DNA of 64,000 nt from Trypanosoma brucei (taxonomy: Eukaryota), in assembly GCA_000002445.1 (NCBI GenBank), contig CH464491.1:3616001-3680000 (forward strand), written 5' to 3'. Positions 41,401 to 63,535 of this stretch are shown one piece after another (position 1 is the stretch's first letter; each line of letters starts with the position of its first letter). Position numbers and translations under genes: made by a program. Below the pieces are notes generated by a model. It did not search any database and was not told the origin of the DNA. It saw only the letters and a list, made by a program, of their open reading frames with translations.

Positions 41401-42164
41401 TCGCCGGTTTGAGAAGGAGCACAGCGAATTTATCGCTGCTTCTCGATACGGAGCAGGATTTCACTACCCTTTCGAGCCCATGGAGTTTTTCATATGACAC
41501 TTCTGAGGTTGGAATGAAAGAAATTCGATCTCTTACCACTTTCCTTGTGTCCGGAGACTCCGGCTTAAGTGAAGCACTCGAGTATGTAACAACTGACTGC
41601 TTACGCTCGGGGCGCTTACTGACGCTTTACGAGATAGTGCGCGGATTTTCTCTTTCACCCTACGGGATGATGGAACTCAAGTTAGATGAAGTGAGAGATC
41701 CACATTGTGGCGTTTCTTCGCATGGAGAAGGGAGTAGTGTGAGGGGTCACTTCCCACACCTGCCTACCCATGGTGAGTTGTTCCTCAATCTTTTCACGGG
41801 CATCCACGAGGAGTTCAGTTTAACACGTAGCCCACGTTGTGTGGGGAATGAGCTACGGCGCCATAGGTCCTCAGTTGTTGGTGCGGAGGTAGCGACCACT
41901 GATTTTACGCTGTGGACCCTAGCTCAGAGCATTTTATATTCCACCCCAGGTCTGCCAGAAACGTTGCGGCACCTCCGTGACCACTTCGCGATGTGGGATG
42001 AGTGTGTCTTAGCGATAAACATTATTCTTATGTGTTTTACTGATGTCGTTCATCAGCTGCGGCGACACTCAGAGCTAGTCCAAGCACTTCAGCATTTGCT
42101 GGTTGATGAGAGAAACTGCGGGTATAAGTCCTTTATACGGTATTGCCTTGAAAATGTAAGTTAG
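38418..42164 (+). CDS. Large hypothetical protein (1248 aa), N-terminal beta-propeller-like region, Cys-rich
   Basis: A single uninterrupted 3.7-kb ORF. The N-terminal half is rich in WD-like hydrophobic/Gly-His/Trp-Asp patterns (LWHPLGEQLVVSTYHGRLLYF; MVWTDDGEMLCVGYNQSGIMVLHY) and the C-terminal half is helical. I could not assign it to a specific family from reading alone; RIC1-like and Rab-GAP-like are both possible. Confidence 0.55.
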   Translation: MRFPSGSLAAYPLETYMVVPGERALEVSVCPTGSYAALLSGGHLHFLTCNTDVVVIGSVSICNAMGDKDYATHFLWHPLGEQLVVSTYHGRLLYFNVAIDVHRERCLTQVYRVNSLPIGCAASCVPLTNEVHLEGDAVVSLVSAGHHCFFACTATGLVRVLGWFKKNLLHTYDANFLSGGLHTFSGLDAACREHTSKDLCAGGTPITSIAILDICYSCQLELTGLLLSSGQFLLANSSAGDDFSCDNVVFNGVCVASAGTSRVCINPRHPLAVLATPTGELECKRISDDLSLTVFWIDVKCVTSDEYRGSIRCMVWTDDGEMLCVGYNQSGIMVLHYSGICVYSSHVAEYPRQHGLRPAIGIEGCASLSWCGNQLLIVDPRGLALTVLGFSKVVSSPCAEATAMFTPACTLDGSKLRFIEQQHTDGSLAFSDTVLLNPRYAVENNPITYGAISSDGSVVALAGRNGFLLFDRLARRWRTMRDRKEEREFTCVAQPVWVKDLMVVFPVRLERTHEYELRVYNRVLSKGAMLVRMPLQNKPLRLSECHDEDGDVFVHLFDDSGTLLVWRCVLSSTYPHAKHNLEVSLKLVKRVPLPRMFRNPVNMMAIHPARLSAYRTTSSPCKFRGNRDEALLPYVLFVVSGSNALIALDLNAVMNRVSVRVASEPLVPLTTIFPSGLFHLWVDYTAPLDGAVLLAVSDRGVSILHLSLDTSGGVTSSLCVNEYRVGDSTDPILAPVGLSAYDGCLLTAFADVDASQQTLSSVSHFSVRTVVVPSMYNYRVLGEVIALRSKISSSITKGPIGGASVQSVSFPWDERVLCWIEGMRRNSTLVCNADYLLCTLIDRETSSLSDSEDPCSMLRLTLSLLQRYPEYHRIVVNCLRKLELPCCPVVVDNIGSTKKLFVSCLEESRLEEAAHLLHLIMVDDGEGGKNGSLDTLRQTLVCATRILMLAVSCKKVQLIYTLLPFMALIFKELLVSDDEERLRALFSDAKGQCALAGLRRSTANLSLLLDTEQDFTTLSSPWSFSYDTSEVGMKEIRSLTTFLVSGDSGLSEALEYVTTDCLRSGRLLTLYEIVRGFSLSPYGMMELKLDEVRDPHCGVSSHGEGSSVRGHFPHLPTHGELFLNLFTGIHEEFSLTRSPRCVGNELRRHRSSVVGAEVATTDFTLWTLAQSILYSTPGLPETLRHLRDHFAMWDECVLAINIILMCFTDVVHQLRRHSELVQALQHLLVDERNCGYKSFIRYCLENVS

Positions 42165-43348: not shown

Positions 43349-44650
43349 ATGGAACTTGATGAAGAGACGAATGCTCTCATGAGGGCTATCAAAGTAGGTG
43401 GGGCGCTTTTGATTGAGGGTCACAGTGGTAATCGGCTGCGGTATTATTATGATTCATTCCACGACTTGGCTGCGCAAGCCGGTGTACCGCGTGCGCATGC
43501 TCCTGAACCGCTGCTAGTTACCTCTATCGAAAGCCTACTGCGTAAGTTGCGAGGAGTGACCTTCTGCCACCATGTATTCTTTATCAACACGGACCTGTGT
43601 TGCAGCCAACTTGTAGGGAGTGTGTTGCTGCGTCGCGGAATGTCCAAAAATTTGCATGTGCTTACGCTTCACGCGCTGCACCACCCTGACCCCAGTACGC
43701 TGCATCTCTTGAAAGCTATGGAGCGTCGGGACGCGGCAGCTATGGCAGAACTTTCGTCTTTTACGGTTGCTACAGGTGACGCGTCGGCGGCGCCACTTAT
43801 AATCCCGCGGCGTTCCCACGATTGCGAGCGCGCCTTACGTGCACTAAATTTTTCACACGCCGCTCTGGCCGCTCGGACGACTGACGTGCACTGTTTCTGT
43901 CCTCAGTGGGTACCGATGCGGCATAGGCGAAAATGGACGGACATGTTTGTGCTTGAGTGTATATTCCCTAGTGATGATATTGCCGACAATATGCTCTCGC
44001 TTCGTAAGGCCTTAGAGGGGGCTGTTGGAAGGGAGGTGGTACTTCTCAGCGCCAGTGAGATCCGCGAAAAGTTGGAGCGAGCGGCCTTTTGCTTTACCTT
44101 TTCTGCATCGGAACGGAGCGTAGTGAATCACCTCATAGCGTCAGCGATCGACGCAGCGAGGAGAAACGGATGGATATTGATAGTGCAGACGGCACTTCCA
44201 GAGTCGTGGGATTTACGTGAGCGCGTGGTTCATCTTTGGCGTGGTGCCCGCGTCATTTCTGCGAATGGACGTATGGGAACGGTGCAGGCGTTTGATGTTG
44301 CGCAGCCGTTGTCACAGCGGTTGCCCTCTTTCTTCAAGCAGACAATGTGGCCTGTTGTCTGCCTTGACGGTGAAGCCTGTGGATCGGTTCTTTTGCCAAT
44401 TGCTTCCCCTTTTTGTACTTCGCAAGTTTCACATGTATTCGATCTGCCGTTGCGTTACGGCGCTTTTGTGACAGTGGAGGAGTTATACGTCACGACCACG
44501 CCGGAAAAAAGGGACTTCCGCCGTTGGATTGTACGTCCCAGTCTTTTTATCGGGCAGTTCCCTCTCCTCCGCTGCGTGATTGCGTCGGTTTCTTCACTGA
44601 GTCAAGTTGTGCTAACCCGTCCATTCTCGTGGGAACTTCTTTTGCGGTAG
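43349..44650 (+). CDS. Hypothetical protein
   Basis: 433 aa ORF aligned in frame and orientation with the array; no recognisable motif. Confidence 0.45.
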   Translation: MELDEETNALMRAIKVGGALLIEGHSGNRLRYYYDSFHDLAAQAGVPRAHAPEPLLVTSIESLLRKLRGVTFCHHVFFINTDLCCSQLVGSVLLRRGMSKNLHVLTLHALHHPDPSTLHLLKAMERRDAAAMAELSSFTVATGDASAAPLIIPRRSHDCERALRALNFSHAALAARTTDVHCFCPQWVPMRHRRKWTDMFVLECIFPSDDIADNMLSLRKALEGAVGREVVLLSASEIREKLERAAFCFTFSASERSVVNHLIASAIDAARRNGWILIVQTALPESWDLRERVVHLWRGARVISANGRMGTVQAFDVAQPLSQRLPSFFKQTMWPVVCLDGEACGSVLLPIASPFCTSQVSHVFDLPLRYGAFVTVEELYVTTTPEKRDFRRWIVRPSLFIGQFPLLRCVIASVSSLSQVVLTRPFSWELLLR

Positions 44651-45153: not shown

Positions 45154-48100
45154 ATGACGAAAGAGGATCACGGTGAGGAAATGGTAACCCACACCCCTCA
45201 AGTGCTGAATGTACGGACTACCGGTGAATCGGTTTCAGCAAACCCATTGAGGGGCGTTGGGTTGAAGGATTGTGGCGTTTTCTCGCCAACTTCCTCTACA
45301 TTTTGTGATACAAGCCGTTTGATGGGAAATACCGGACGTAGCGTAGAAAACAGCACTGTCACATTTGTCACAGGGGCACCGGGGAAAGAGGAGGCGGACA
45401 GGCGGCATTGTCGTGTCGGCACAATTGCTGCGGTAGCACTTCTCATGCTAACTGGGGTATTTACACTTAGTTTTACGAGTTTGCTGTCAGCCCACTATAT
45501 TGGGTCTAGTGTCGTTATTGGTACTACAGGGCTTATCGAGAAGGAAGCTGTTAGGAGTGTTGTTAAAATTATGCGGTCCACTGTTCTTCAGCTCCCGGAC
45601 TTTGCGCATATCGTGAATGCGAAGTATATTCGAAATCAAACTTCTTTATATACTGTGAACAGGTTTCCCAGGGACCCTCGAGCACTGTTGTATTCACTTA
45701 TGAGCCTGCTGTCGACGTTTAAAGACACCATCGCATATTTTAAGTTTGTTCACGAGGGTGGTTCGTATGCGTTTGCTGTTAATTATGATGTAGGGGACGG
45801 TGGAAATAATTCTGTGGTGTTAGGTGCGTACAACAATGACTCGTCTCGTGCGAGTTTTGTCGTGTACGATGCGATACGGTTGAAACGTTTGCATGAAGAT
45901 TCCAATCGGAATTGGGATATTTCTCATGATTTGAGCAGGACGCTCAGTCCTTTTGGAGCAGTTGCGCGTCAATGGCATGAAAGTGGAAGCAATAAGCGGT
46001 GGATTCCAAGTGAGATTGAGCACACCGGTGAGTACTTTAATTATGTGATTCCTTTTCATGTTGGTGGCGCCCTTGGTGCATGCATTGTTGGTCTGTCAAC
46101 TGATCGCTTGCTTCTTGAGTCGCGACCCCTTGTGGAAGCCTTGCGTTCCCACGGACGTGCAATGTTGTTTGATGATTCGAGGGATATTGTTATTTTGAAC
46201 AGTTGGGGGCAGCCGCAGTCATGGGATGAAAACCCCTCTGACGGGGAGCTAGTATTCAAGCACTTGACGTTGGAGGGGATAAATGACAGCATTGTGGTTG
46301 ATTTAGTCCGGGAGATGGAAAAGCATCGTGATCCTACTACTGACCGCCTAAGCGATTCGGTTGAGTTAACGTTTCCTAATAGCGGGAGTCATGTGGATGG
46401 CCGACTGGGCCGAATTACCGACGAAAGCGGTCTGGACGTCACGTTGGCTGTGGTGACTATGCGTTCAGATTTTCTTGAAGGAGTCGTACGCACGCGGAAC
46501 GTGACTATTGTTTCCATCTCGGTGATAATATTGTTGTCCGCCGTTTTTTCCCTCGTAAGCACTTATTACTTGGTGAAGCCTCTGATGCTCCTTGTATCGG
46601 CTTTAAAAAGTGCTTCCAATTTAGAAATCCCCGATAATGCTGACATATTCTTGGGCAGATCCCGGATTGTGGAGGTGAGAAAAATACAGGGGCACTATGC
46701 GAAGCTTCGACGCCAGTTGGCGGTTTTACTAAAGTTCATCCCGGAGGCTATCTTAGCCCGCGTTGAATCTAAGAGTGAAGCTGGAGGGCATATTCGTGCA
46801 AATGGATCAGCAACTGAGACCCCTGGCGAGTCGTCCACGGCATTCGTGAGGATTATGGGGGCAAGCATCAGCGTCACTTGGAATGCTGGTGATCAGCAGC
46901 GCGACGTGGCGCTCAACTGCGGAATCTTCAAGGAAAAGCCAAATGTATTCAACCGCAGGCATTGTACCGTTATAGCTATTCAAGTGTACCACCCAGATGT
47001 TTGGAAAAGTTCTACAAAATACCATGCCGCTTTGATCGAAGTGGCTACCGAGCACTCTGGTTGTGTTGAGGCTCTTGATCCTGATAGAGCCCTCATTAGT
47101 TTCGGTGCACATGCAGCGCTTCCGATGCACTGCAGGAGATGCTGCCAGTTTGCCTTTGATTTATTCGCCAAACTTCCTTTAGATCACCGAGACTCCGTTA
47201 CCATGTTGGTGGATACCAATGAGTTTCTAGTTGGAACTTGTGGCGCGTTCTCGCGAAATGCACGAGTCCTCTTCGGCGCAGATCATCTGTTTCAACTCTC
47301 GCACGCAGTTAGGGATGGTCCCTGCCGTATTGCAGCCACATCTGGTGGAGCCTCACATATGCAAGGTTTTTTAGCTTTCCCCGTGGATTGTGTGCTCCTT
47401 CCCTGCTCCACGCTCCCCATTGTATTGTTTGAGTTGAGACCAGGAGAGAGCTCGAGTGAAGTTTCGCTTAGTATTTCCAAGCAGTTTCGCCTGGGTTTTG
47501 CGGCAATGCGCCAGGGGAGGTATGGAGAGGCGATGGCACATTACCTTCCCATGGTGAAGATGGATATGCAGGCGAAGCGCTTGATGAGGTTATGCCGTCA
47601 GCGCTGTCGGCGTAACGACACGGTCCCATATGTGCGGGTGTTGGACAACCATTACTGTGTTAATTCTAGTGATTGTAAACCTGAGGAACAGGATGAAAGC
47701 GATATCAAAGATAGGGTACCCGAGACAATTGACTCTCCACGACGTCCGGATGGGGAGGGTTCTGAAAGTGATTCATCAGACCAAGGCAGTGAATCGCTGT
47801 TCAAAATGTATGCTCCATCTTCCTCATCCTCGTTGGACGGTTCAGGCTGTGCTGAGGGTGCAAATGCTGCAGACGTCGTACCCCTTTTTCTAACCGATTC
47901 CAATCGGAATGTTTGGACACGTTCACTGAAGAAAATTAGTGAAGGAGCTTTCAGCACAATTTTCCTTGGTGTGGCTGAGGATGGGGCTCAGGTCGCCATC
48001 AAGTGCATTCCGCGGTTGCGACGTGATGTTGTGGCTGAATCTTTGGAGAAGGAGATGGAGGTGGCGTCGAAGCTCCATCATCCTAATATTGTCCGGTATG

Positions 48101-48741
48101 TGTCGTGTAGCATTACACCATCGCACCTCTCGATAATTATGGAATACGTGCCTGGTGGCTCTTTGCATTCTGTTATAAAAAATTTTGGGTGCGTCAGCCC
48201 TTATGTTGCGCGGCGCTTCACCGTCGACATTCTACAGGGACTCAATTATCTCCATAACCTTGGTATTGTTCACTGCGATGTGAAACCGCACAACGTCCTA
48301 CTGGGTACTGACGGTGTTTGCAAGTTGTCAGACTTCGGTTCAACAATATCTGAAGCGTCAGTTATGGCCAGAACCTTAGCTGATGGTGTGATGCTTCGCG
48401 GTACAGCACTATATATGGCTCCGGAAGTGGCAGCTGGTGGGCGTTGCACGCCCCAATCCGATATATTTTCCTTCGGTATTTCGTTGTTGGAGATGTTACT
48501 TGGGCGCCCACCATGGCAGTGGAGCAGCACGGCTCCAGCAGGAAGTGATGCGACTCGCCTCCGCAGCCTCTTTAACCGGGATTTGCTTTTTGTTCAGAGT
48601 CTTGCGCTCGGTCATTTAGAGCCTGTCATACCGGCTTCTGTGGATCATGAAGCGGCTGCTTTCGTCCGCGCCTGTTGCCATATGAATCCAAGCATGAGGC
48701 CTTCCGCATCCAGTTTACTTTCATATGCATTTTTGTTGTGA
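45154..48741 (+). CDS. Receptor-like membrane protein: ectodomain - TM - degenerate nucleotide-cyclase homology domain - C-terminal STE-like Ser/Thr protein kinase
   Basis: Two hydrophobic helices are present: TIAAVALLMLTGVFTLSFTSLL and VTIVSISVIILLSAVFSLVSTYYLV. The central region FVRIMGASISVTW...HCTVIAIQV...VTMLVDTNEFLVGTCGAFSRNARVLFGADHLFQLSHAVRDGPCRIAATSG has the spacing of a class III cyclase homology domain. The kinase domain has a glycine loop (GEGAFSTIFLG), VAIK (VAIKCIP), an HCDVKPHNVLL catalytic loop, DFGST and GTALYMAPEV. Confidence 0.8.
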   Translation: MTKEDHGEEMVTHTPQVLNVRTTGESVSANPLRGVGLKDCGVFSPTSSTFCDTSRLMGNTGRSVENSTVTFVTGAPGKEEADRRHCRVGTIAAVALLMLTGVFTLSFTSLLSAHYIGSSVVIGTTGLIEKEAVRSVVKIMRSTVLQLPDFAHIVNAKYIRNQTSLYTVNRFPRDPRALLYSLMSLLSTFKDTIAYFKFVHEGGSYAFAVNYDVGDGGNNSVVLGAYNNDSSRASFVVYDAIRLKRLHEDSNRNWDISHDLSRTLSPFGAVARQWHESGSNKRWIPSEIEHTGEYFNYVIPFHVGGALGACIVGLSTDRLLLESRPLVEALRSHGRAMLFDDSRDIVILNSWGQPQSWDENPSDGELVFKHLTLEGINDSIVVDLVREMEKHRDPTTDRLSDSVELTFPNSGSHVDGRLGRITDESGLDVTLAVVTMRSDFLEGVVRTRNVTIVSISVIILLSAVFSLVSTYYLVKPLMLLVSALKSASNLEIPDNADIFLGRSRIVEVRKIQGHYAKLRRQLAVLLKFIPEAILARVESKSEAGGHIRANGSATETPGESSTAFVRIMGASISVTWNAGDQQRDVALNCGIFKEKPNVFNRRHCTVIAIQVYHPDVWKSSTKYHAALIEVATEHSGCVEALDPDRALISFGAHAALPMHCRRCCQFAFDLFAKLPLDHRDSVTMLVDTNEFLVGTCGAFSRNARVLFGADHLFQLSHAVRDGPCRIAATSGGASHMQGFLAFPVDCVLLPCSTLPIVLFELRPGESSSEVSLSISKQFRLGFAAMRQGRYGEAMAHYLPMVKMDMQAKRLMRLCRQRCRRNDTVPYVRVLDNHYCVNSSDCKPEEQDESDIKDRVPETIDSPRRPDGEGSESDSSDQGSESLFKMYAPSSSSSLDGSGCAEGANAADVVPLFLTDSNRNVWTRSLKKISEGAFSTIFLGVAEDGAQVAIKCIPRLRRDVVAESLEKEMEVASKLHHPNIVRYVSCSITPSHLSIIMEYVPGGSLHSVIKNFGCVSPYVARRFTVDILQGLNYLHNLGIVHCDVKPHNVLLGTDGVCKLSDFGSTISEASVMARTLADGVMLRGTALYMAPEVAAGGRCTPQSDIFSFGISLLEMLLGRPPWQWSSTAPAGSDATRLRSLFNRDLLFVQSLALGHLEPVIPASVDHEAAAFVRACCHMNPSMRPSASSLLSYAFLL

Positions 48742-49120
48742 TGGTCAACATTAATAGGAGCTTGCAACATTATTCCCATGTGTAGAACCACTATTTTTTT
48801 CCTTTTTTTTTTTGGACGTTACCTTTTCACTTTAGAGAGTTGTTTTTCCCCTTTTTGGGAAACCGTACTGTTATTTATAATGACGTGTTCGGATATTTCA
48901 TTAGGATGTTACGATGTTATTGTGTGTTGGTTTTTCACGTAGTAATTATGATAATCGGTGGTCTGCTGTTCGTCGGCGGCGTTTGTGAAGGTGACTTTCT
49001 TATCCTTATTCCTCTCTTTTTTTTCTTTTTTTAAAAAACCTTTTTTTACATTCCGACGTTCGTTCGTTTGCTTGGTTGAGTTTTTTTTTTTAAATTGTTA
49101 TTCCCCTCCCCTCCTCTCCA

Positions 49121-49150
49121 CACTTGTTGTTGTTGTTGTTGTTGTTCTTT
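49121..49150. repeat. (TTG)n microsatellite
   Basis: The run ttgttgttgttgttgttgttgtt lies downstream of the kinase gene. Confidence 0.85.
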
Positions 49151-51027
49151 TAGCGTCAGTGGTGCTTTGGTCCTTTACTTTATGTGAAGACGTTTTCTTT
49201 TCTTTTTTTTTTTTCGTGCTCATATAAATAAACAAATATTTGCTCTGTTTTACGTATTTCATTCCGTAATTGACTGCAACGATTTTTTCTTTTTTTTTTC
49301 TTTTTTACCCTCTCTCCCTCCTTTTACTTCTAAAGTTCAAATGTAGAGATGGAATGTATGCCGCTACGCCCGCTTTCCCTTTTTCTTTTTTTCTCATTTC
49401 TCTCTGCATGGCAAAACTCTTTTCCCACGTTTGTTTTCGTTTTTTTTTTTTCCTGGCCCCATTTGGATTTATACGAAATTAAATAAATAAATGTAAAAGA
49501 TCATGCATTATAACTTATTTTTCTGAGCACTTTTTATGTGGTGTTTTGTTTTGTTTTGTTTTTTTTTTTCAGTTGAAAATAACAAAAGAGGGAAATAAAG
49601 GGAGCCACCGCGCGCGCGGGTTGCGGTATTTTAGGTATTAGTATTGTGTTGTGCGGAGGGGGAGGGGTGAGAGGGAAATAATAACTTTTATCATATGACT
49701 GTACATAAATGCGTGTTTGTATTTTATGTTTTATATTTAAGTTTTCAAATGTTTTATCGTTGCGCCCACTGGTCCTGTACGTGGGCTCACACGCCATAAC
49801 CCTTCCGTTGTTTGTTGTTTGTTTTTTTTTTTTTACATTTTTAGTTGTTTTGTTTGGACCAAATATGTAAATATATTTGTCCTCTATATTTTTCACGGTT
49901 CCTGTCCGCGCCACCAGTTGCTTTTTGTACGGTTAATCCACATTTGTGTAAAAGCACTGCAATCCCTCTCTTTTTGTTTATTATTATTATTATTTTTTTT
50001 TTTTCAAAGAGGAAAAGCGCGCGTGACGGGTTAAATATCGGAACGTCTATTATATATATTTATATATATTCCCGCTTTTTTTTCTTTTCACAATCTTGTT
50101 GTCTCCTTGCATATTGAATAGGTATTTTCCCTCGTGTATAACTGCACTTATATATGCTTTAGAGGGACAGGTACAGGGACAGAAGGGAAAGAAAAAAAAA
50201 AAAGAGAACGAAAGAAAGAATAACTCATTGCTATTTAAAAAAAAAAAAATGTTTCTTTTAATGTTGTCTTCCGTCTGCCTGCATCTCTTTTTCTTTTTCT
50301 TTCTTCTCTTTGTTGGTTTAACCTGTCATACACTTCTTCTCAACCTTTTCCTCTTTTTTGCGTTGTGTGTTGTGACACGACATTTTTTCTTTTTTTTTTT
50401 GTGTATCATTAACATAACATTTGGCCAACAGTAACAAGAAAAAAAAAAGAAAACACAAGCAAAAACAAAACAAAACAGAGCAAAGCAAAAAAAAAAAACA
50501 AATAATAGAAGATTTGTTTTTTTTTCTTTGTTGCATTCATTAGGGCGTATTTTATTCGTTGAGTGACGGTTAGGCCTTTCCTTTCGGCTTTTCATCTCAC
50601 AAATCCCACATTTGTACCAAATATTTGCTGGTAGAGAACTGCGATTGGAGGTTCCGATCTTTTTTTTTTGTCTTTTTTTTTTTTTTTTAAAGAAAAATCA
50701 AAAAAGGGTGCATCTCAGACCATTCCTTTGTAGCAAACATTTGGTTTAAACAAGTGCAGGACTGTGATATAAGGAAAGGAAAATAGTTAAGTGAGCAAGA
50801 GGGAGAAATACAGAAGGGAGCGGAATATCGTCATAAACAGTTGACACGAGAGAAAGAGAGAGAAAAAAAAAGAGAGAGTTTGTGTGTGAGTTTGTGTGTG
50901 AGTGTGTGTAGTTAATATCATTATCAGCGGGTAGTGTCAGCATCTAACAACAATAAGAGGAAGAAAGCTCGTGTCGTGTGTTGGAGGGGAGAAGGTGTGT
51001 GGTATCGCGGATACACAAGCAAGAAAG

Positions 51028-51058
51028 AAAAATAAATAAATAAATAAATAAATAAATA
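51028..51058. repeat. (AAAT)n microsatellite
   Basis: The run aaataaataaataaataaataaataaataa lies upstream of the PHO80-like cyclin gene. Confidence 0.9.
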
Positions 51059-51211
51059 AGGAAAGAAAGCTGGAGGTGGAGGTGGGGAAAAGCGATAGAA
51101 AAGGAAAACAAGAAAAAAAAACAAAAGGAAATAATAATTCAAAAGGGAAAGTACAACGCGTGTGAGGAGAGGGACAAGTGTGTCTGTTTGTCTGTTTGTG
51201 TGTAGGAAAGT

Positions 51212-51892
51212 GTGTCCGAGACACAGCATAATAACGTACATTGGTGTAGTTTGCGTATGACCATTATGATGGACGGCCCAAAATCTTCTACGCGAGCTAC
51301 TGAAACAATTAATCAAAGCGATGGGCAGCATCGACAGCAGTGGTGCGACCGTCAGCAGACGGGGCGTAATTGCAATAGTGCAGGCAGCGATTCCCAATCA
51401 GCGGATCCACAACAATCGGGATTACATGAGTTAGGGCAATTGACAGCAGTGGCAGTAGAGCGTCGGTGCGTGGAACAGCGGCATTTAGAGCACCTTTACC
51501 AATCCGCTTTTCACAGCAGTCATGTTCCTGCAATATCTGTGTGGAATTACATGCGTCGCATAGGCAAATACTCACGGTGCTCACCAGAATGCTTCATCAT
51601 CTGTATCATATTCATTGATCGGTACGTTGCAGCAACGAATTGTCCAATAACTTTTCGGAACATTCACCGGCTTTTGATAACTTCAATGTTGGTGAGTGTA
51701 AAGTTGCGGGATGACTCATTTTATAGCAATTCTTACTTTGCAGGTATTGGTGGCGTTAGTAATGAGGAACTTAATAGATTAGAGATTGAGTTTCTCATGA
51801 CAATTGATTGGCGCACATGGGTGGAACCAAGTGATTTTAACATGTACTGTGAGCAACTGAGATCTCGTTGCTCGGCGAATCAGGAGCAGTAA
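51212..51892 (+). CDS. PHO80-like cyclin
   Basis: ISVWNYMRRIGKYSRCSPECFIICIIFIDRY...NIHRLLITSMLVSVKLRDDSFYSNSYFAGIGGVSNEELNRLEIEFLMTIDWRTWV aligns to the PHO80/PCL cyclin box (ISIQSYLERI.KY..CS..CFVVAYVYLDR...NVHRLLIT...AAKF.DD.YY.N.YYAKVGGIS..E.N.LE..FL). The gene sits inside an otherwise low-complexity 7-kb region. Confidence 0.7.
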   Translation: MSETQHNNVHWCSLRMTIMMDGPKSSTRATETINQSDGQHRQQWCDRQQTGRNCNSAGSDSQSADPQQSGLHELGQLTAVAVERRCVEQRHLEHLYQSAFHSSHVPAISVWNYMRRIGKYSRCSPECFIICIIFIDRYVAATNCPITFRNIHRLLITSMLVSVKLRDDSFYSNSYFAGIGGVSNEELNRLEIEFLMTIDWRTWVEPSDFNMYCEQLRSRCSANQEQ

Positions 51893-52288
51893 AATGCTGG
51901 AGCGGAGAAGCGTTGAGTAAAACAGGAGAAATGGAAGAAGAAGGGAAAATTGTATGAAAGAAAAGAAAAAAAAAAGAGAATTAATTAAGATAGTATAAAA
52001 AATGAAAAAAAATAAGACAAAGCTATCAAGAGTGCTAACAAATAAAAGGAATGATCGACCCTTGACGTTTCTGAAGGGCATGCGTGTGTGTGTGTGTGTG
52101 TTCACATATTTGTTTATATTTATTTTTGCTTGTGTATTTATTTATTTATGAAGATGCAAGTGAAAGAAAATGTGTGTGGTTGCTTGGATGGTTGACCGTT
52201 TTTTTTTGTATTTGTTGCCTTGGTGAAGCAATCAAGGCTGAAAACAAAAACAAATAAATAAAATAAACGAAATTCAAAGAAGAATTGG

Positions 52289-52312
52289 TATATATATATA
52301 TATATATATGTA
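52289..52312. repeat. (TA)n microsatellite, with a (GT)n run nearby at 52084..52102
   Basis: The sequence reads tatatatatatatatatatatg, and gtgtgtgtgtgtgtgtgt occurs at 52084. Confidence 0.85.
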
Positions 52313-55309: not shown

Positions 55310-55342
55310 TCATTATTATTATTATTATTATTATTATTGCTT
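55310..55342. repeat. (ATT)n microsatellite
   Basis: The sequence reads attattattattattattattattattg. Confidence 0.9.
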
Positions 55343-55679
55343 TTTTTTGTCGTTAAATACAGGAAGAATTGTGAAGTAGGCGGATTTCAATTATTACTAA
55401 TATTAATATTATTATTTTTGCTCATTTCAGAGGTGTGCATATAAATAAGGTGAAAGCACAAAACAGACAAAGAAAAATAAATAAATAAAGAATTAGGGAG
55501 AGAGTGGGTGACTCCGGCATTCAAACCTACACAGACAAAGTAAAAGCAAAAAGAATAAAAAGGAGAGAGAAGGAGGAAAAAAAAACAAATCTAAGCAGAA
55601 ACCAAAAGACTACGAAGAATCCATAGGGGAAGAGAAGAAAAGAGCAAATAAAAGGAAAAGAAAATAAAAGAGAAAGATA

Positions 55680-57122
55680 ATGCAAGGCGCATACGGAGGC
55701 CGCGGTCGTGGGATGGCACGTGGTCGTGGGGGAGGCGGTGGCTTTGATTCCTCAAGAGGCGCAGGCCGACACCCTTATATGACAAGTAATGTTCCAACGG
55801 ACACTTTATGTGTACGCATTACGGAGGTCCGCCAACCCGTCACAGAGGATATGATGTTTCGCGTGTTTGCCAGCATTTCAACTAACCCGCGCCGGATACA
55901 AATTGCTCCCTCTTCCGATCCCAATGAAACAGTTGTCATGGCGCAATTCTCTGATACATACGCAACGCAGCGGGTGATGGAGAACTTAAACAACCGTAAC
56001 ATATTCAATGATGGTAACAAGATGATGATGACTTATTCGGCGTGGGAGCCAACGCCTGTGCTGCCGGCGCCGGTACCGCCAGTTCCCGTCTACGGTGGTG
56101 CAGCACCAGTTTACGGTGGTGTTCAGGTGAACCCAGGCGTGGCTTTTCCACAACCTCAGGTACATCAACCGCAACCCGGAGTGTATGCCCAGCCTCGACA
56201 GCAACCGATGCCACAAATGCCCATGGCAGCTTCGGTACCTCCGATGAGACTCGGAAACGATCAACAGGGCGGACGAAACAACCGCGGGCGTGGGCGGAAT
56301 GGATCTCGAGGTGGTGCAGCGGGTGCGGTGCCCCCTGGCATGATGGGTTTTGATCCAATGATGATGGGATACCCGGCAATGGCTTCCATAATGCAAATGC
56401 CTGGTGGGATGATGGCTTTTATGAACCAGCAGAGGCCGCCACAGAATTCCCCAACCGTTTTTCTCAGCGTAACAATAGTTCCAGAGTCCGAACCACTGCA
56501 TTCTATCTTTGTTCTTATTGAAGTGTACGGCGGGGTCGTAACCATCCGCCGCAACCACAACAGGAAGGAAATTCTTACGGTGAAGATGGCTTCCGTGCCC
56601 GAGGCGGACAGCGTCGTACAATTCTTGAGGAAGGTCCCCTTTGCTGGCGGTACTGTCAGTGCTAAACGGTTCCCCACTTACACTGAGCGTACACCATGCA
56701 CAGATGATGGCAACCCTCATGACAGTGCAACAGTTCAGTACGATTTCACAACGGCTCGCCATCGCAGCCCCGGACAGCGCAGCAGATGCCATCCATCAAG
56801 TGTGTTGAAGGTAACTGGATGCGGCGGCTACTCGGAAGCGGACGTGATGACGTATTTTACAAGTGAGAATTTCTACCCGGACCGCATCATCAAAGACGAC
56901 GAGGGATCCTTCACTGTATACATGGCTGATGTCGAAACGGCCGTCGCACTACTACTGAAGTGCCACAACAATGTTTGCGGGGAGGAACGCTCAAACGTTC
57001 TCTTCATTGAGGGGCCGAGGGATACAACAACCTCCGCCACAGCGGCCAACAATGCTTCTGCTTCCGGCAGTGCAGTGGCAGAGAATGTAAATGAAGGTGC
57101 TGGGGAAAATGGTTCAGCATAA
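55680..57122 (+). CDS. PTB-like RRM RNA-binding protein (paralog 1) with N-terminal RGG/Gly-Arg-rich and Pro/Gln/Met-rich low-complexity regions
   Basis: The N-terminus is GGRGRGMARGRGGGGGFDSSRGAG. RRM-like blocks LCVRITEVRQPVTEDMMFRVFA and VFLSVTIVPESEPLHSIFVLIEVYGGVVTIRR are collinear with the VVIVNSVPETVALHSLWVLLEVYGNVNSLKR block of the downstream gene. Confidence 0.65.
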   Translation: MQGAYGGRGRGMARGRGGGGGFDSSRGAGRHPYMTSNVPTDTLCVRITEVRQPVTEDMMFRVFASISTNPRRIQIAPSSDPNETVVMAQFSDTYATQRVMENLNNRNIFNDGNKMMMTYSAWEPTPVLPAPVPPVPVYGGAAPVYGGVQVNPGVAFPQPQVHQPQPGVYAQPRQQPMPQMPMAASVPPMRLGNDQQGGRNNRGRGRNGSRGGAAGAVPPGMMGFDPMMMGYPAMASIMQMPGGMMAFMNQQRPPQNSPTVFLSVTIVPESEPLHSIFVLIEVYGGVVTIRRNHNRKEILTVKMASVPEADSVVQFLRKVPFAGGTVSAKRFPTYTERTPCTDDGNPHDSATVQYDFTTARHRSPGQRSRCHPSSVLKVTGCGGYSEADVMTYFTSENFYPDRIIKDDEGSFTVYMADVETAVALLLKCHNNVCGEERSNVLFIEGPRDTTTSATAANNASASGSAVAENVNEGAGENGSA

Positions 57123-58488
57123 AATACCTGAGCATTGGGTATATGCATGTGAAACGGCGGCAGAGGAAGTTGTGAATGAATGCTAATCTGCAGTATTTAT
57201 CAGAAGATTCTTGCGTTATGAAGTTGCGGGTGTGGGAAAGGATAGGGGGAATATGGGTTAAACAACCGAGTAGAAAAGGAAAGGTACCAATCACATGAAG
57301 TCGGCGGTAGTTGTAGTGGCGGTGGCTGTGGCGCGTGCGTGTGTGTTTGTGTGTATGTCTGTTGGAGAGAAATATGTTTGCGCGCGCCCACACATATGCT
57401 TTAAAAAAAAAAAAAATAATAATGATGATAAAAAGTGCCAAAAGGAAACACTGACATTGAATGAAAAGGTACGAAAAAAGGGGGTGATCCCGGGATTTCG
57501 ATGTTCGTGTGGAGGTCAATGTTGCGTTTAAGTGGAAAAGGGGAAGAGGCGGATGGAGTAAAGACCCTAGCATGTGAACGCGCAGAGAGCGTCCGTAGCA
57601 AATATTCAGCATTCCACTGTTGGTATTGAACGCCCTACCGCTGCACGGTGCGGTTTCTTTACGTCTGTACCTCACGGGAGCTGAGAGGTGGCCGTTTACA
57701 ATATCTATAAAAGAAGATGGAGAAGAAGAAGGATGAAGAAAAGAAATTCAAGTTAATTCCAGGTTCTGGGTGAGCTGCACATTTCTTCTCACCGCTCGGG
57801 AAAATGTGAGACGTGTTGTTGCCACGTTATTGTGGGTAATGCGAGGAAGGAACAAAAAGAAAAATATAACATCAATAATATAAGACAATTTTTTTTTTCC
57901 CCTTTGCACATGTATTTCGTTGTTGTTGTTCTTCTTATCTTTCCATTATATATGCCATTGCTTGGACACCCCTCCATCTCACACGTTGTTCGCCCCACTT
58001 GTAGCTCAGCGCGCGTGTGTGTGAGAGGTGGAAGTACATGCGAGATGCTACTGTTTTCATTTTTGATTTTGTTTGTTGATTGCCCCTTGACCCAGTTTTC
58101 ACTCCTTTTTCTTCCTTCTTTAATTCATTTTTCTTTCTTTACATATATGCGCATACACGTATGCTTTTATTCGTTTGGAGCTTTGCATCTTTATGCCTTC
58201 CTGTGCATTTCTCCGTAACCCCAACGCCTGCCTGATGCTGAAAGACCTTGTCATATTTATTTTAGGACAACGTGGAATCGCTCATATATCATCTCCAACA
58301 GTACCTCTCCAAAAACAAAAATATTTGTTTTCTTTGTCTGTGAGGGATGAAGGAGATGGGTGTAAAGGGTGAAGGAGGATATGAGCGTTCCTCTTTTGCG
58401 TGTGGACCTTTTATCTGTAACTTTTACGGATTCGGCGGCGGGGCATCTGAAAGGCTTATTGGATGGAGTTGTTGCAAGGGCTTCGCGC

Positions 58489-58527
58489 ATTTATTTTTAT
58501 TTTTATTTTTTATTTTTTATTTTTATA
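58489..58527. repeat. (ATTTTT)n-like minisatellite
   Basis: The sequence reads atttatttttatttttattttttattttttatttttatag. Confidence 0.8.
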
Positions 58528-58844
58528 GGGAATCAACACAAAACCGACGGTTCATTTACTGTTGTTATTATTATTTTTTTGATTGTTTTCTGACTTGAAC
58601 CCTAGCATGAAGTGGAATTTGATTGCACAGATGGGAGTTTGTGAATTCGCATCGTTGATACCTATATATATATATGTGTGTATTATTGTTATTTCGTTTA
58701 CAGTTTGGCCGCCGTCGTGTCTTCGGTTGAGTCAGTCACAGTTACCACTTCTTGTGTGTTATTGACTGTTTGTCCACTCGTACGTGTATCCTCATTTATC
58801 ATATGGAGTTTGGCGGCTACATTACAAACAAACACGCAAGCGTA

Positions 58845-62017: not shown

Positions 62018-63535
62018 ATGCAAACCTGTCTTTTGAGTAACATTCCTCCCTGTACCGAGGATGAACTCAAACGTGGTTTGCTTGCGTATGGCACGACTGT
62101 CAGCACAGTGGTTGTTCCTCATATGCGGCAGGCAGCCGTGACGATGCGTACTGCCCAAGAAGCGCAGGCGCTCCTTCAGAGGGGATGCATCAGTTTATTT
62201 GGTCAGACTGTAAAAGTGGAACCAGCGGCAAGTCCTGCTGTTCCATACGGTGCCGGTGGCATTTCTGCTGGCGGAATGAATAACCATTTAGGTGGTGCTC
62301 GGATTAATGTTGTGGTGGAGAAGTGTACCTATCCCGTCACAAAGGAGGTATTGTCACAAGTTTTCAGCATGGTGGCTCCTCCTGCCAACGTCGTGTGCGG
62401 CCCATCAGGCCCCACAACAAATGGGTGGGTTGATTACAACGATATCGCTACTGCCCAGCGAGTTGTGGTACAATTGAATAATAACTCAATCTATCCCGAC
62501 TGTTGCTTCATGACACTAACGCTCGAGCATATGGGGAGCACGCCCCGCGGGATGGGGGAGTATGGCTCACAGGGTCACATGCCTTATCATCCTCAGCAAC
62601 CACAACACCAGAATATTCACCAAAACCAGCAAATGTCCCAACAGCAGTTGCAGGCAATGCCTTTTGGTAACAATGGCTTTAATGCGGCGTCAGCTCGTGG
62701 TGGCCGCGGAATTCGTGGGCGAGCCCGAGGGCGCGGGGCGATGGGTGGTCGGGGTGGACCGGTTTACGGCTCGGGATACCCCATGCAGCATGCGCCGTAC
62801 GCACCAGGGCAATATGGAGCACCTCCTGTGGATTCTGTAGTGATTGTCAACAGTGTCCCTGAAACAGTGGCGTTGCACAGTTTATGGGTTTTGCTTGAGG
62901 TTTACGGCAATGTTAACTCCCTTAAGCGACAATTCAGCTCCAAGACATCCGTGATTGCACACTTCCAAAATGTGCACGATGCCCGCCTTGCCGTGCAGCA
63001 CCTTCAGGGTTGTCCGTTCCACGGTGCCACGTTGACGTTAAGGCACTTTGCAGGTTATGTGGAACGCGGTGGGAAAACTGAGTGGAACAGCGGCCCGGCA
63101 ACGGATCCTGCAACACAGGCAGTGCTCTTCTCCTGTGGGTATCACCACCGTACACGACCAACAGCTTCTTTCAATCCCACAGGACGCGTCCGACCGGGGA
63201 GGTATTTGTTTGTCTCAAACCTTACGGAGGCCATTACAGACGATGACCTAAAGGATGTCTTCACCAACGAGTGTTTTGAGTTGGATGGGTATTACCGAAA
63301 GAGCCCCACTGTCGCAATCGTTAGTCTCAAAGATGTGGAGACTGCCGTGAACGCCCTCATCGCCGTGCATTCTCATCAACTTAAGGAGCGCTTCCTCCGC
63401 GTCACGTTTTCTCACTTCCCCCCGGCTCCACGCAGTGGCACTGAGGAGGAAGTAGAACAAGCACTGGCGGCTACAGAGGCGGAGGCAGCTGAAGTGAGGG
63501 AAGATGTGGAACCACAGGACGAACAGAATGAGTGA
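62018..63535 (+). CDS. Polypyrimidine-tract-binding-protein-like RRM protein (paralog 2; DRBD/PTB family)
   Basis: INVVVEKCTYPVTKEVLSQVFS...NSIYPDCCFMTLTLEH parallels PTB RRM2 (LRIIVENLFYPVTLDVLHQIFS...QNIYNACCTLRIDFSK). There are four RRM-like blocks, a Gln/His-rich and RG-rich linker, and an acidic C-terminus. Confidence 0.75.
   Translation: MQTCLLSNIPPCTEDELKRGLLAYGTTVSTVVVPHMRQAAVTMRTAQEAQALLQRGCISLFGQTVKVEPAASPAVPYGAGGISAGGMNNHLGGARINVVVEKCTYPVTKEVLSQVFSMVAPPANVVCGPSGPTTNGWVDYNDIATAQRVVVQLNNNSIYPDCCFMTLTLEHMGSTPRGMGEYGSQGHMPYHPQQPQHQNIHQNQQMSQQQLQAMPFGNNGFNAASARGGRGIRGRARGRGAMGGRGGPVYGSGYPMQHAPYAPGQYGAPPVDSVVIVNSVPETVALHSLWVLLEVYGNVNSLKRQFSSKTSVIAHFQNVHDARLAVQHLQGCPFHGATLTLRHFAGYVERGGKTEWNSGPATDPATQAVLFSCGYHHRTRPTASFNPTGRVRPGRYLFVSNLTEAITDDDLKDVFTNECFELDGYYRKSPTVAIVSLKDVETAVNALIAVHSHQLKERFLRVTFSHFPPAPRSGTEEEVEQALAATEAEAAEVREDVEPQDEQNE

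What the first reader, a model, noticed from the sequence alone, without database searches (positions are those of the whole stretch)
45154..48741. Receptor-architecture protein fusing an ectodomain, a degenerate nucleotide-cyclase homology domain and an STE-like protein kinase
A single 1195-aa ORF contains a signal-anchor-like helix, an extracytoplasmic region of about 330 aa, a second TM helix, a region with the spacing of a class III adenylyl/guanylyl cyclase catalytic domain (...FVRIMGASISVTW...VTMLVDTNEFLVGTCGAFSRNARVLFGADHLFQLSHAVRD...) and a complete-looking kinase domain (VAIK, HCDVKPHN, DFG, APE). In my reading, the first metal-binding Asp of the cyclase (FaDIvGFT) is replaced by Arg (FVRIMGAS), so the cyclase module is probably catalytically dead. 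It may instead serve as a dimerisation or regulatory module. The layout resembles a trypanosome receptor adenylate cyclase that has gained a C-terminal kinase, much like animal receptor guanylyl cyclases in reverse order. That makes it a candidate environmental-sensing receptor kinase in an organism that lacks receptor tyrosine kinases.
Basis: partly seen in the sequence, partly recalled or inferred. Interest (0 to 1): 0.6.

Follow-up and report, generated by a model that had tools for sequence, protein, structure and literature searches.

The report
RDK1: sensor, dead cyclase, active kinase

Summary
The 1195-aa ORF at 45154..48741 (+) is real. It is 99% identical to "Repressor of differentiation kinase 1" (RDK1, Tb927.11.14070) of Trypanosoma brucei.

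The architecture I confirmed:
- a short N-terminal tail, then TM1
- a 333-aa double-Cache (dCache) ectodomain, then TM2
- a HAMP-like two-helix unit and a disordered insertion
- a class III nucleotide-cyclase fold (aa ~599-768) with a TPR-like helical cap
- an acidic/Ser-rich linker and an STE11-like kinase

The cyclase fold is invisible to Pfam on the single sequence. A family profile finds it (Cya2 2w01, E 8.5e-11), and so does a confident AlphaFold model (all top 50 Foldseek matches are class III cyclases).

Five of the six canonical catalytic positions are lost, and the phosphate-binding loop is deleted. None of 42 kinase-fused relatives keeps the catalytic set. Four kinase-less relatives do, at least one of them bacterial.

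It was wrong on the motif register, the ectodomain type and the nearest relative.

The architecture was published in 2021. Two 2026 preprints add the dCACHE/cyclase-like description, measured kinase activity and absent adenylyl cyclase activity. Verdict: already known.

The parts
45154..48741 (+). Complete RDK1 ORF (1195 aa plus stop codon)
   Evidence: ORF; 99% identity to 'Repressor of differentiation kinase 1 [T. brucei equiperdum]'
45154..45414 (+). N-terminal tail, aa 1-87, predicted cytosolic
   Evidence: 4 K/R in the 18 residues before TM1 against 1 after it (positive-inside rule). The topology is inferred.
45415..45492 (+). TM1, aa 88-113; continues into the long stalk helix of the sensor
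   Evidence: KD 2.04; model helix 11-66 = aa 90-145
45493..46491 (+). Extracytoplasmic double-Cache (dCache) sensor domain, aa 114-446
   Evidence: model pLDDT 83.7, two alpha/beta modules on a long helix; Foldseek hits: TlpC, TlpQ, PctA/D, Tlp3, Mlp24, HK1 sensor domains, McpB; profile against PDB: MCP ligand-binding domains, E 1.5e-10; no Pfam hit on the single sequence
46492..46578 (+). TM2, aa 447-475
   Evidence: KD 2.69; continuous helix aa 437-488
46579..46782 (+). Juxtamembrane HAMP-like helix-connector-helix, aa 476-543 (KPLMLLVSALK...IVEVRKIQGHYAKLRRQL...FIPEAIL)
   Evidence: helices aa 506-528 and 531-543 after the TM2 helix; 58 relatives align here; top hit is a full-length McpB-type model over 490 columns; Pfam HAMP in only 1 of 25 family members, E 0.043, so inconclusive by sequence
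46783..46947 (+). Linker, aa 544-598. It ends in the family-conserved motif RDVxLNxxIFKEKPNVF just before beta1.
   Evidence: pLDDT below 50 for aa 560-586; aligned to a gap against true cyclase P0066; conserved LN...N.F motif
46948..47457 (+). Class III cyclase homology domain, aa 599-768, catalytically degenerate (pseudo-cyclase). Key positions: Q610, A640, D644, V705, L712, Q714.
   Evidence: profile against PDB: Cya2 2w01 E 8.5e-11, CyaB, bPAC, sAC, RhGC; model pLDDT 84.5; top 50 Foldseek hits all class III cyclases, best E 2.4e-11, TM-score 0.68 normalised to the target; catalytic positions
47458..47610 (+). TPR-like three-helix cap, aa 769-819 (FRLGFAAMRQGRYGEAMAHY...)
   Evidence: helices at model 210-227, 231-241 and 246-260, pLDDT above 90; weak TPR_1/TPR_2 hits; 5 of 25 family members; TPR-type hits at the same position after the cyclase domain in P0055 and P0066
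47611..47910 (+). Acidic/Ser-rich linker, aa 820-919; composition suggests disorder (region not modelled)
   Evidence: sequence composition; no domain hits
47911..48738 (+). STE11-like protein kinase domain, aa 920-1195
   Evidence: Pkinase E 8.7e-54; best PDB hits MAP3K2, ASK1, MST3, PAK; catalytic motifs present, Gly-rich loop degenerate: SEGAFS; a preprint reports kinase activity of immunoprecipitated RDK1

Best explanation
The ORF encodes RDK1 (Tb927.11.14070), a two-pass membrane kinase of Trypanosoma brucei. From the N-terminus it has a dCache sensor on the extracytoplasmic side, TM2, a HAMP-like unit, a cyclase homology domain (CHD) that has lost catalysis, a TPR-like cap, a flexible linker and an active STE11-like kinase.

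Shown here: the domain identities, their order, and the loss of the cyclase catalytic residues.

Inferred: the sensor-HAMP-CHD-TPR part descends from a bacterial-type dCache adenylyl cyclase cassette. In RDK1 the CHD no longer makes cyclic nucleotide. Instead it keeps the obligate head-to-tail dimer of class III cyclases and works as a rigid dimeric coupler. A ligand- or pH-induced piston or rotation in the dCache/TM2/HAMP helices would change the CHD dimer geometry, and with it the proximity or orientation, and so the activity, of the two kinase domains. This mirrors animal receptor guanylyl cyclases, where a dead kinase regulates a live cyclase.

From the literature: the kinase output represses bloodstream-to-procyclic differentiation.
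For: Identity: 99% to annotated RDK1. The gene identifier and RNAi phenotype come from PMC3894213.

Topology: two strong hydrophobic helices and the positive-inside rule.

dCache: a confident model and Foldseek hits to many dCache ligand-binding domains. The profile hits MCP ligand-binding domains at E 1.5e-10.

CHD: the profile hits Cya2 at 8.5e-11. The model has pLDDT 84.5, and all top 50 Foldseek hits are class III cyclases.

Cassette ancestry: RDK1 aa 1-900 retrieves kinase-less proteins that by themselves match Pfam dCache_1 (to 6e-19) and Guanylate_cyc (to 2e-25). Two of the three scanned also have a TPR-type match. One of them is from a Verrucomicrobiales MAG. A single collinear BLASTP alignment covers aa 330-814 (E 2e-9).

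Dead cyclase: the positions are Q610, A640, D644, V705, L712 and Q714, where active enzymes have D, K, D, T/D, N and R. There is also a ~10-residue deletion of the beta1-alpha1 'GFT' phosphate loop and a 2-residue deletion before the Arg position. D644 is not conserved in orthologues (M, E, E, D, N, S). None of 42 kinase-fused relatives keeps D, D, N, R, while 4 of 14 kinase-less relatives do.

Experiment: the preprint 10.64898/2026.05.05.722970 reports robust kinase activity, no adenylyl cyclase activity, and no change in cAMP on RNAi.

Dimer idea: the most conserved family motifs (VSFGAH, VGTCGA, RNARV) fall on the beta2-beta3 and beta4-beta5 hairpins, which form the dimer interface in class III cyclases. 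That last point rests on established knowledge of the fold, not on a test here. The Leishmania preprint models RDK1 as a homodimer.
Against: - No dimer model or interface analysis could be run here, so the coupling mechanism is inference.
- The family alignment is at 15-30% identity, so single positions could be off by a residue or two. However, no Asn exists anywhere in aa 705-725, and the loop deletion does not depend on register.
- Localisation in the literature is inconsistent: membrane fraction, ER for a C-terminally tagged protein, cell membrane plus mitochondrion. Surface exposure of the sensor is therefore unproven.
- No ligand is known.
- Guanylyl cyclase activity has not been assayed.
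- The Gly-rich loop of the kinase is non-canonical, although activity is reported.
Confidence: 0.8

Rival explanations
1. The cyclase-like domain is an active guanylyl cyclase (not adenylyl), so RDK1 is a bifunctional cyclase-kinase. The 2026 RDK1 preprint leaves this possibility open.
For: The fold is that of class III cyclases. The best structural and profile hit, Cya2 2w01, is annotated as a guanylyl cyclase. GC activity was not assayed. One metal-binding Asp (D644) is present in T. brucei.
Against: GC and AC share the same two metal-binding Asp residues and the same transition-state Asn and Arg. RDK1 has Q610, L712 and Q714 at three of these four positions, and lacks the phosphate-binding loop after beta1. 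D644 varies among orthologues (M, E, E, D, N, S). No Glu or Cys specificity pair is present (A640, V705). None of 42 kinase-fused relatives retains the catalytic set.
Confidence: 0.04
2. The dead cyclase domain is kept as a non-catalytic ligand- or nucleotide-binding allosteric site. It would resemble the degenerate second site of heterodimeric cyclases and regulate the kinase by binding a small molecule rather than by simple dimeric coupling.
For: The pocket-forming hairpins are the most conserved part of the family, and an Arg aligned with the conserved Arg of the beta4-beta5 arm in true cyclases is retained (R701). Phosphoproteins that change on RDK1 knockdown are enriched for cyclic-nucleotide-signalling functions.
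Against: The phosphate-binding loop is deleted and the base-recognising residues are hydrophobic (A640, V705). No binding data exist. Conservation of the hairpins is explained equally well by dimerisation.
Confidence: 0.15
3. One reading: a trypanosome receptor adenylate cyclase (GRESAG4/ESAG4 type, with a PBP/ANF-like ectodomain) that gained a C-terminal kinase.
For: Both are trypanosome membrane proteins with an extracellular domain and an intracellular class III cyclase fold. T. brucei has a large family of such receptor cyclases.
Against: The ectodomain is dCache, flanked by two TM helices, not a PBP-like domain with one TM helix. The PDB sequence search with family profile A1 at E<=10 lists cyanobacterial, bacterial, light-regulated and mammalian soluble cyclases but no chain named as a trypanosome adenylate cyclase. 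None appears in the top 50 Foldseek hits either. The collinear full-length relatives are dCache-cyclase proteins, most with a TPR tail, and one of them is bacterial.
Confidence: 0.03
4. RDK1 is not a surface receptor. It is an ER or mitochondrial membrane protein whose dCache domain faces an organelle lumen and senses an internal metabolite.
For: C-terminally tagged RDK1 localised to the ER in bloodstream forms. The 2026 preprint reports proximity to many mitochondrial proteins and a dual localisation. There is only one Cys in the ectodomain, so no disulphide stabilisation.
Against: [quoted passage not shown] Tagging may disturb trafficking. The four NxS/T sequons in the ectodomain fit the secretory pathway but do not distinguish the ER from the surface.
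Confidence: 0.25

Closest known systems
RDK1 (Tb927.11.14070), as described by Jones et al. 2014 (PMC3894213), Jensen et al. 2021 (PMC8519429) and the preprints 10.64898/2026.05.05.722970 and 10.64898/2026.09.15.751656
   Same: It is the same gene (99% identity). The published architecture matches what I found independently: bacterial sensor-like/dCACHE domain, TMD, adenylyl/guanylyl-cyclase-like fold, STE11-like kinase. Kinase activity and the absence of AC activity have been reported.
   Different: In the texts I could search, none of these papers gives a residue-level account of why the cyclase is inactive, and the May 2026 preprint still leaves GC activity open. This analysis adds four things: the catalytic-position table, the phosphate-loop deletion, the family-wide loss (0 of 42), and the TPR-like cap shared with intact dCache-cyclases.
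Bacterial-type dCache-TM-(HAMP)-class III adenylyl cyclase-TPR proteins (e.g. P0078 from a Verrucomicrobiales MAG; P0055, P0066)
   Same: They are collinear with RDK1 over the membrane-proximal Cache module, TM2, the juxtamembrane helices, the cyclase fold and the TPR-like tail. They share the two-TM topology.
   Different: They keep the full catalytic set (D, K/Q/N, D, T/G, N, R) and the GFT phosphate loop, and they have no kinase domain. RDK1 has lost catalysis, gained a ~55-residue insertion before beta1, and is fused to an STE11-like kinase.
Metazoan receptor guanylyl cyclases (GC-A, GC-C)
   Same: Both are single polypeptides that combine an extracellular sensor, a kinase-fold domain and a cyclase-fold domain. 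In both, one of the two enzyme folds is catalytically dead and presumably regulatory, and both signal as dimers.
   Different: The domain order is inverted, and it is the other fold that is dead. The ectodomain is dCache rather than ANF-receptor type, there are two TM helices rather than one, and the kinase is STE-group rather than RGC-group. This is an analogy, not homology of the whole architecture.
Trypanosome receptor adenylate cyclases (ESAG4/GRESAG4)
   Same: Same organism, membrane-anchored, with an intracellular class III cyclase fold.
   Different: From the literature, GRESAG4-type proteins are surface proteins with an external presumed ligand-binding domain and an internal catalytically active cyclase domain, and no kinase. 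That they have a PBP-like ectodomain and one TM helix is general knowledge, not tested here. The RDK1 family profile matched no PDB chain named as a trypanosome adenylate cyclase at E<=10.
Paralogous kinetoplastid TM-sensor-CHD-STE kinases (e.g. LmxM.30.1830/1840; T. brucei Tb927.3.5650, Tb927.9.12400, Tb927.10.1910 per Jensen 2021)
   Same: They share the overall layout of two TM helices about 350 aa apart, a cyclase-like domain and a C-terminal kinase. There are at least 42 clusters at 50% identity, and all lack the full catalytic set.
   Different: They are only 15-30% identical to RDK1 in the shared regions. The ectodomain similarity to RDK1 is detectable by sequence only for the closer members.

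Membership tests
Class III nucleotide cyclase (Pfam PF00211 Guanylate_cyc) | Cyclase homology domain fold (beta-alpha-alpha-beta-beta-alpha-beta core with a dimerisation arm) | tested here: met
   The AF2 model has pLDDT 84.5. All top 50 Foldseek PDB hits are class III cyclases; the best is 2w01 at E 2.4e-11, TM-score 0.68 normalised to the target.
Class III nucleotide cyclase (Pfam PF00211 Guanylate_cyc) | Sequence match to the family model above its gathering score | tested here: not met
   There is no PF00211 hit at E<=10 for the whole protein or for aa 475-900, and none of 25 family segments matches at E<=1. Homology appears only at profile level (A1 against PDB: 2w01 at 8.5e-11) and through intermediate sequences.
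Class III nucleotide cyclase (Pfam PF00211 Guanylate_cyc) | Two metal-binding Asp residues (beta1 and the beta2-beta3 turn) | tested here: not met
   The first is Gln610. The second is Asp644, but it varies among orthologues (M, E, E, D, N, S).
Class III nucleotide cyclase (Pfam PF00211 Guanylate_cyc) | Substrate-specifying pair (Lys + Asp/Thr for ATP; Glu + Cys/Ser for GTP) | tested here: not met
   The positions are Ala640 and Val705.
Class III nucleotide cyclase (Pfam PF00211 Guanylate_cyc) | Transition-state Asn and Arg at the start of alpha4, and the phosphate-binding beta1-alpha1 loop | tested here: not met
   The positions are Leu712 and Gln714, with a 2-residue deletion between them. 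About 10 residues of the 'GFT' loop are deleted. There is no Asn anywhere in aa 705-725.
Class III nucleotide cyclase (Pfam PF00211 Guanylate_cyc) | Cyclase activity | not testable with these tools
   The preprint 10.64898/2026.05.05.722970 reports no AC activity and unchanged cAMP. GC activity was not assayed.
dCache_1 sensor domain (Pfam PF02743) | Double PDC/Cache fold on a long N-terminal helix, flanked by two TM helices | tested here: met
   Model. Foldseek hits include TlpC, TlpQ, PctA/D, Tlp3, Mlp24, HK1 sensor domains and DctB. TM helices.
dCache_1 sensor domain (Pfam PF02743) | Sequence match to the family model | tested here: not met
   RDK1 aa 101-449 gives no Pfam hit at E<=10. Four of 25 family members match dCache_1. 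Profile A2 hits MCP ligand-binding domains at 1.5e-10, but A2 contains Pfam-positive members.
dCache_1 sensor domain (Pfam PF02743) | Known ligand-binding motif (e.g. the amino-acid-binding motif of dCache_1AA) | not tested
   No residue-level comparison of the membrane-distal pocket was made.
HAMP domain (Pfam PF00672) | About 50 residues directly after the TM helix: AS1 helix starting at a conserved Pro, a connector, and AS2 helix with a conserved Glu | tested here: inconclusive
   The model shows helix-connector-helix at aa 476-543. KPL... follows TM2, and there are near-invariant Glu507, Leu522 and Pro530 in the family. Pfam HAMP matches only 1 of 25 members, at E 0.043.
STE group / STE11-like (MAP3K) eukaryotic protein kinase | ePK catalytic domain with the VAIK Lys, HxD catalytic Asp, DFG and APE | tested here: met
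   Pkinase E 8.7e-54. Motifs at 947, 1040, 1060 and 1089.
STE group / STE11-like (MAP3K) eukaryotic protein kinase | Closest similarity to STE11/MAP3K catalytic domains | tested here: met
   The best PDB sequence hits are MAP3K2 (3.3e-30) and MAP3K5/ASK1, followed by STE20-type MST and PAK. It is classified STE/STE11 in PMC3894213.
STE group / STE11-like (MAP3K) eukaryotic protein kinase | Canonical GxGxxG glycine-rich loop | tested here: not met
   The loop reads ISEGAFSTIF, and no GxGxx[GSA] match was found. Kinase activity is nevertheless reported.
Metazoan receptor guanylyl cyclase (RGC) | ANF-receptor ectodomain, one TM helix, a pseudokinase, then an active guanylyl cyclase, in that order | tested here: not met
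   The ectodomain is dCache, there are two TM helices, the order is cyclase-fold then kinase, the cyclase is dead and the kinase is live. The resemblance is an analogy only.
Trypanosome receptor adenylate cyclase (ESAG4/GRESAG4) | PBP-like ectodomain, one TM helix, catalytically intact CHD | tested here: not met
   The ectodomain is dCache with two TM helices, and the catalytic residues are lost. The PDB sequence search with profile A1 at E<=10 listed no chain named as a trypanosome adenylate cyclase.

The most novel reading that the evidence does not exclude
Kinetoplastids may carry a whole family of 'pseudo-cyclase receptor kinases', with at least 42 sequence clusters at 50% identity. They would derive from one bacterial-type dCache-HAMP-cyclase-TPR cassette fused to an STE11 kinase. 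In every member the cyclase fold has lost catalysis and is kept only as the obligate dimeric transducer between sensor and kinase. This would be a mechanistic mirror image of the pseudokinase in animal receptor guanylyl cyclases. It could be the main transmembrane sensing route in organisms that lack GPCRs and receptor tyrosine kinases. The architecture and the missing AC activity are published. The family-wide, residue-level pseudo-enzyme status and the transducer role are not, as far as the papers I could search show.
Probability: 0.45. Interest if true: 0.45.

Novelty: already known. Interest (0 to 1): 0.22.

Why it matters
RDK1 is a repressor of bloodstream-to-procyclic differentiation in the sleeping-sickness parasite. 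It is also one of only about ten transmembrane kinases in an organism without GPCRs or receptor tyrosine kinases, so how it senses and transmits a signal is of real interest.

That interest is already recognised. The gene, its sensor/cyclase-like/kinase layout, its kinase activity and its lack of adenylyl cyclase activity are all in the literature.

What this analysis adds is modest but usable:
- A residue-level explanation for the missing cyclase activity. It also argues against the guanylyl cyclase activity that the latest preprint leaves open.
- Evidence that the loss is family-wide.
- Evidence that the sensor-to-TPR cassette is collinear with intact dCache-cyclases, at least one of them bacterial.
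- Specific positions (Q610, D644, L712, Q714, the deleted loop, the beta4-beta5 arm) for mutagenesis to test a dimeric-transducer role.

Tried and rejected
1. Pfam on the whole protein and on sub-segments, and phmmer of aa 475-900 against PDB sequences. Neither gave any cyclase or Cache signal; the only hit was one weak TPR-like match. I rejected this as evidence of absence once the profile and the structure agreed.
2. The word-indexed homologue search with aa 1-900 returned only two proteins. The exhaustive HMMER search was needed.
3. I rejected it because the segment is disordered in the model, is not conserved in orthologues, and aligns to a gap against a true cyclase.
4. A PBP/ANF-receptor ectodomain. 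I rejected it because the Foldseek and profile hits were dCache-type and related sensor domains, and none was a PBP or ANF-receptor domain.
5. The third hydrophobic peak (aa 739-761) as a TM helix. I rejected it because it is a buried beta-strand region of the cyclase fold. The literature also doubts the third predicted TM.
6. A literature search for 'pseudocyclase' or 'cyclase homology domain' together with kinase and dCache found nothing relevant.
7. Pfam HAMP on family members gave 1 of 25 at E 0.043, so I describe that unit only as HAMP-like.
8. Tandem repeats in the long AT-rich stretch downstream: only one short (GTATATATGTATGT)x4 array, of no relevance to the finding.

Full report
**1. 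Observation**

The ORF exists exactly as described: 45154..48741, + strand, ATG start, 1195 aa. It lies in a window where 23 of the 24 ORFs of at least 250 aa are on the + strand, as expected for a trypanosomatid polycistronic unit.

A Kyte-Doolittle scan gives two strong hydrophobic helices, at aa 88-113 and 447-475, which enclose 333 residues. There is a weaker peak at 739-761.

Pfam Pkinase matches aa 925-1193 at E 8.7e-54. The closest solved kinase domains are MAP3K2 and ASK1, followed by STE20-type kinases, so 'STE-like' is correct.

**2. Identity**

Residues 1-900 are 99% identical to 'Repressor of differentiation kinase 1 [Trypanosoma brucei equiperdum]' and 48% identical to a T. vivax protein. 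RDK1 is Tb927.11.14070. It is a membrane-associated STE11-like kinase whose knockdown promotes bloodstream-to-procyclic differentiation (PMC3894213).

Orthologues or paralogues were named in T. melophagium, T. grayi, T. theileri, Leishmania spp., Porcisia and Strigomonas.

**3. Is there a cyclase domain?**

None of 25 family segments matches it individually. phmmer of aa 475-900 against PDB sequences finds only a weak TPR-like stretch.

Three independent lines nevertheless show that the domain is a class III cyclase homology domain:

- **Profile search.** An exhaustive HMMER search of 1.84 billion representatives with aa 1-900 found 92 relatives. A profile built from 25 of their cyclase-like segments (A1) hits bona fide class III cyclases in the PDB: Cya2 2w01 at E 8.5e-11, CyaB 3r5g at 5.7e-7, bPAC, soluble AC and rhodopsin-GC.
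- **Structure.** An AlphaFold2 model of aa 560-840 is confident (pLDDT 84.5, pTM 0.81). All of its top 50 Foldseek matches in the PDB are class III cyclases. The best is 2w01 at E 2.4e-11, TM-score 0.68 normalised to the target.
- **Intermediate sequences.** Among the relatives retrieved from RDK1 are kinase-less proteins (P0055, P0066, P0078). On their own they match Pfam dCache_1 (down to 6e-19) and Guanylate_cyc (down to 2e-25), and two of them also have a C-terminal TPR-type match. RDK1 aa 330-814 aligns collinearly with P0066 in a single BLASTP alignment (E 2e-9).

The cyclase assignment therefore stands.

**4. Is it degenerate?**

That segment has pLDDT below 50, is not conserved among orthologues, and is an insertion relative to a real cyclase.

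The fold begins at aa 599, and beta1 is HCTVIAIQVYH. I aligned the family together with its four members that have intact catalytic residues. The six canonical positions read as follows:

| Canonical position | Residue in RDK1 |
|---|---|
| Metal Asp 1 | Gln610 |
| Substrate Lys | Ala640 |
| Metal Asp 2 | Asp644 |
| Substrate Asp/Thr | Val705 |
| Transition-state Asn | Leu712 |
| Transition-state Arg | Gln714 |

In addition, about ten residues of the beta1-alpha1 'GFT' phosphate-binding loop are deleted, and two residues are deleted just before the Arg position. Asp644 is not conserved in orthologues (M, E, E, D, N, S).

Of 42 kinase-bearing relatives, none keeps the D, D, N, R set. Of 14 kinase-less relatives, four do. 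Alignment at 15-30% identity can slip by a residue, but there is no Asn anywhere in aa 705-725 and the loop deletion does not depend on register.

This agrees with experiment. A May 2026 preprint reports that immunoprecipitated RDK1 has robust kinase activity and no adenylyl cyclase activity, and that knockdown does not change cAMP. It leaves guanylyl cyclase activity open. The residue pattern argues against that as well, because GCs and ACs use the same metal-binding and transition-state residues.

**5. The rest of the protein**

A second model, of aa 80-560, is also confident (pLDDT 83.7). It shows:

- one long helix, comprising TM1 and the sensor stalk
- two alpha/beta modules
- a long helix through TM2
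- a helix-connector-helix unit

Foldseek matches dCache ligand-binding domains of chemoreceptors (TlpC, TlpQ, PctA/D, Tlp3, Mlp24, McpH), HK1-family histidine-kinase sensor domains and DctB. The top hit is a full-length B. subtilis McpB-type model aligned over 490 columns. A family profile hits MCP ligand-binding domains at E 1.5e-10, with the caveat that this profile contains Pfam-positive dCache members.

The juxtamembrane unit looks like HAMP. A Pro follows TM2, and Glu507, Leu522 and Pro530 are near-invariant in the family. However, Pfam HAMP is seen in only 1 of 25 members, at E 0.043, so I call it HAMP-like.

After the cyclase fold comes a well-predicted three-helix TPR-like cap at aa 769-819, also seen as TPR-type matches in P0055 and P0066. 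It is followed by an acidic/Ser-rich linker and the kinase.

The positive-inside rule and four NxS/T sequons in the ectodomain fit an N-in, sensor-out, kinase-in topology.

**6. Origin**

P0078 is encoded in a Verrucomicrobiales bacterium MAG. The sources of the other intact relatives are unnamed metagenomic contigs.

The collinearity from the membrane-proximal Cache module to the TPR tail suggests that the whole sensor-cyclase-TPR cassette was inherited as a unit from a bacterial-type dCache cyclase and then fused to an STE11 kinase. Jensen et al. suggested bacterial-like modules in RDK1 and proposed a bacterial origin for a sister kinase. The profile search of PDB sequences listed no chain named as a trypanosome adenylate cyclase at E<=10, so a GRESAG4 origin is not supported.

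**7. Mechanism**

Shown here: the domain order, the folds and the loss of catalytic residues. From the literature: kinase activity, absent AC activity, membrane association and the differentiation phenotype.

Inferred: the dead cyclase fold is retained as the dimeric coupling element. Class III cyclases work only as head-to-tail dimers. The most conserved family motifs (VSFGAH, VGTCGA, RNARV) lie on the hairpins that make that interface. The Leishmania preprint models RDK1 as a homodimer.

A signal at the dCache domain would pass through TM2 and the HAMP-like helices to the CHD dimer and reposition the two kinase domains. I could not run a multimer model, so this step remains inference.

Rivals are an allosteric small-molecule site in the dead pocket, an intracellular rather than surface location (reports conflict), and residual GC activity, which I consider unlikely.

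**8. Comparison and novelty**

The gene is known. Its sensor-like/TMD/cyclase-like/kinase architecture was published from HHpred in 2021 (PMC8519429). The dCACHE-NucCase-kinase description and a homodimer model for the Leishmania orthologue and two paralogues appeared in a September 2026 preprint. The inverted-RGC analogy, together with kinase and cyclase assays, appeared in a May 2026 preprint.

In the texts I could search, I did not find four things: the residue-level account of the dead active site, the phosphate-loop deletion, the family-wide loss (0 of 42), and the shared TPR cap. These are refinements, not a new kind of system.

**9. Verdict**

It was wrong on the motif register, the ectodomain type and the nearest relative.
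- Novelty: already known.
- Interest is low to moderate.

Noticed in passing
window 1-64000: Of the 24 ORFs of at least 250 aa, 23 are on the + strand. The only minus-strand one (55986..56792) lies inside a + strand ORF. This fits a single trypanosomatid polycistronic transcription unit with positive GC skew throughout.
   Followed up: partly
window 48741-55680 and 57122-62018: Two long stretches without large ORFs follow RDK1 and have low G+C (0.32-0.40, against ~0.48 elsewhere). They flank two RRM-domain protein genes at 55680..57122 and 62018..63535. They are probably long UTR or intergenic regions. The only tandem repeat is (GTATATATGTATGT)x4 at 52288-52345.
   Followed up: partly
window 43349-44650: The 433-aa ORF immediately upstream of RDK1 has no Pfam match at E<=0.001. 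Its function is unknown.
   Followed up: no
window 38418-42164 and 17956-21303: Neighbouring genes encode a RIC1-like protein (beta-propeller plus RIC1 C-terminal solenoid) and a 1115-aa kinesin. They look ordinary and have no evident functional link to RDK1.
   Followed up: no
window 24001-26000: A local dip in G+C to 0.36 falls in a gap between ORFs (21303 to 26804). I did not examine it.
   Followed up: no
window 47458-47610 (aa 769-819): A TPR-like three-helix cap directly follows the cyclase fold. It is conserved across the kinase-fused family, and TPR-type matches occur at the same position in two intact dCache-cyclases (P0055, P0066). It may be part of the ancestral cassette and a docking surface.
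   Followed up: partly
window 46900-46947 (aa 583-598): The motif RDVxLNxxIFKEKPNVF just before beta1 is conserved in the kinase-fused family and absent from the intact cyclases. It might replace the usual cyclase-transducer element between HAMP and the cyclase fold.
   Followed up: no
L001 3001-5031: The Verrucomicrobiales MAG gene for P0078 (dCache plus an intact class III cyclase) is the only prokaryotic locus fetched. Its neighbours were listed as ORFs but not analysed.
   Followed up: no
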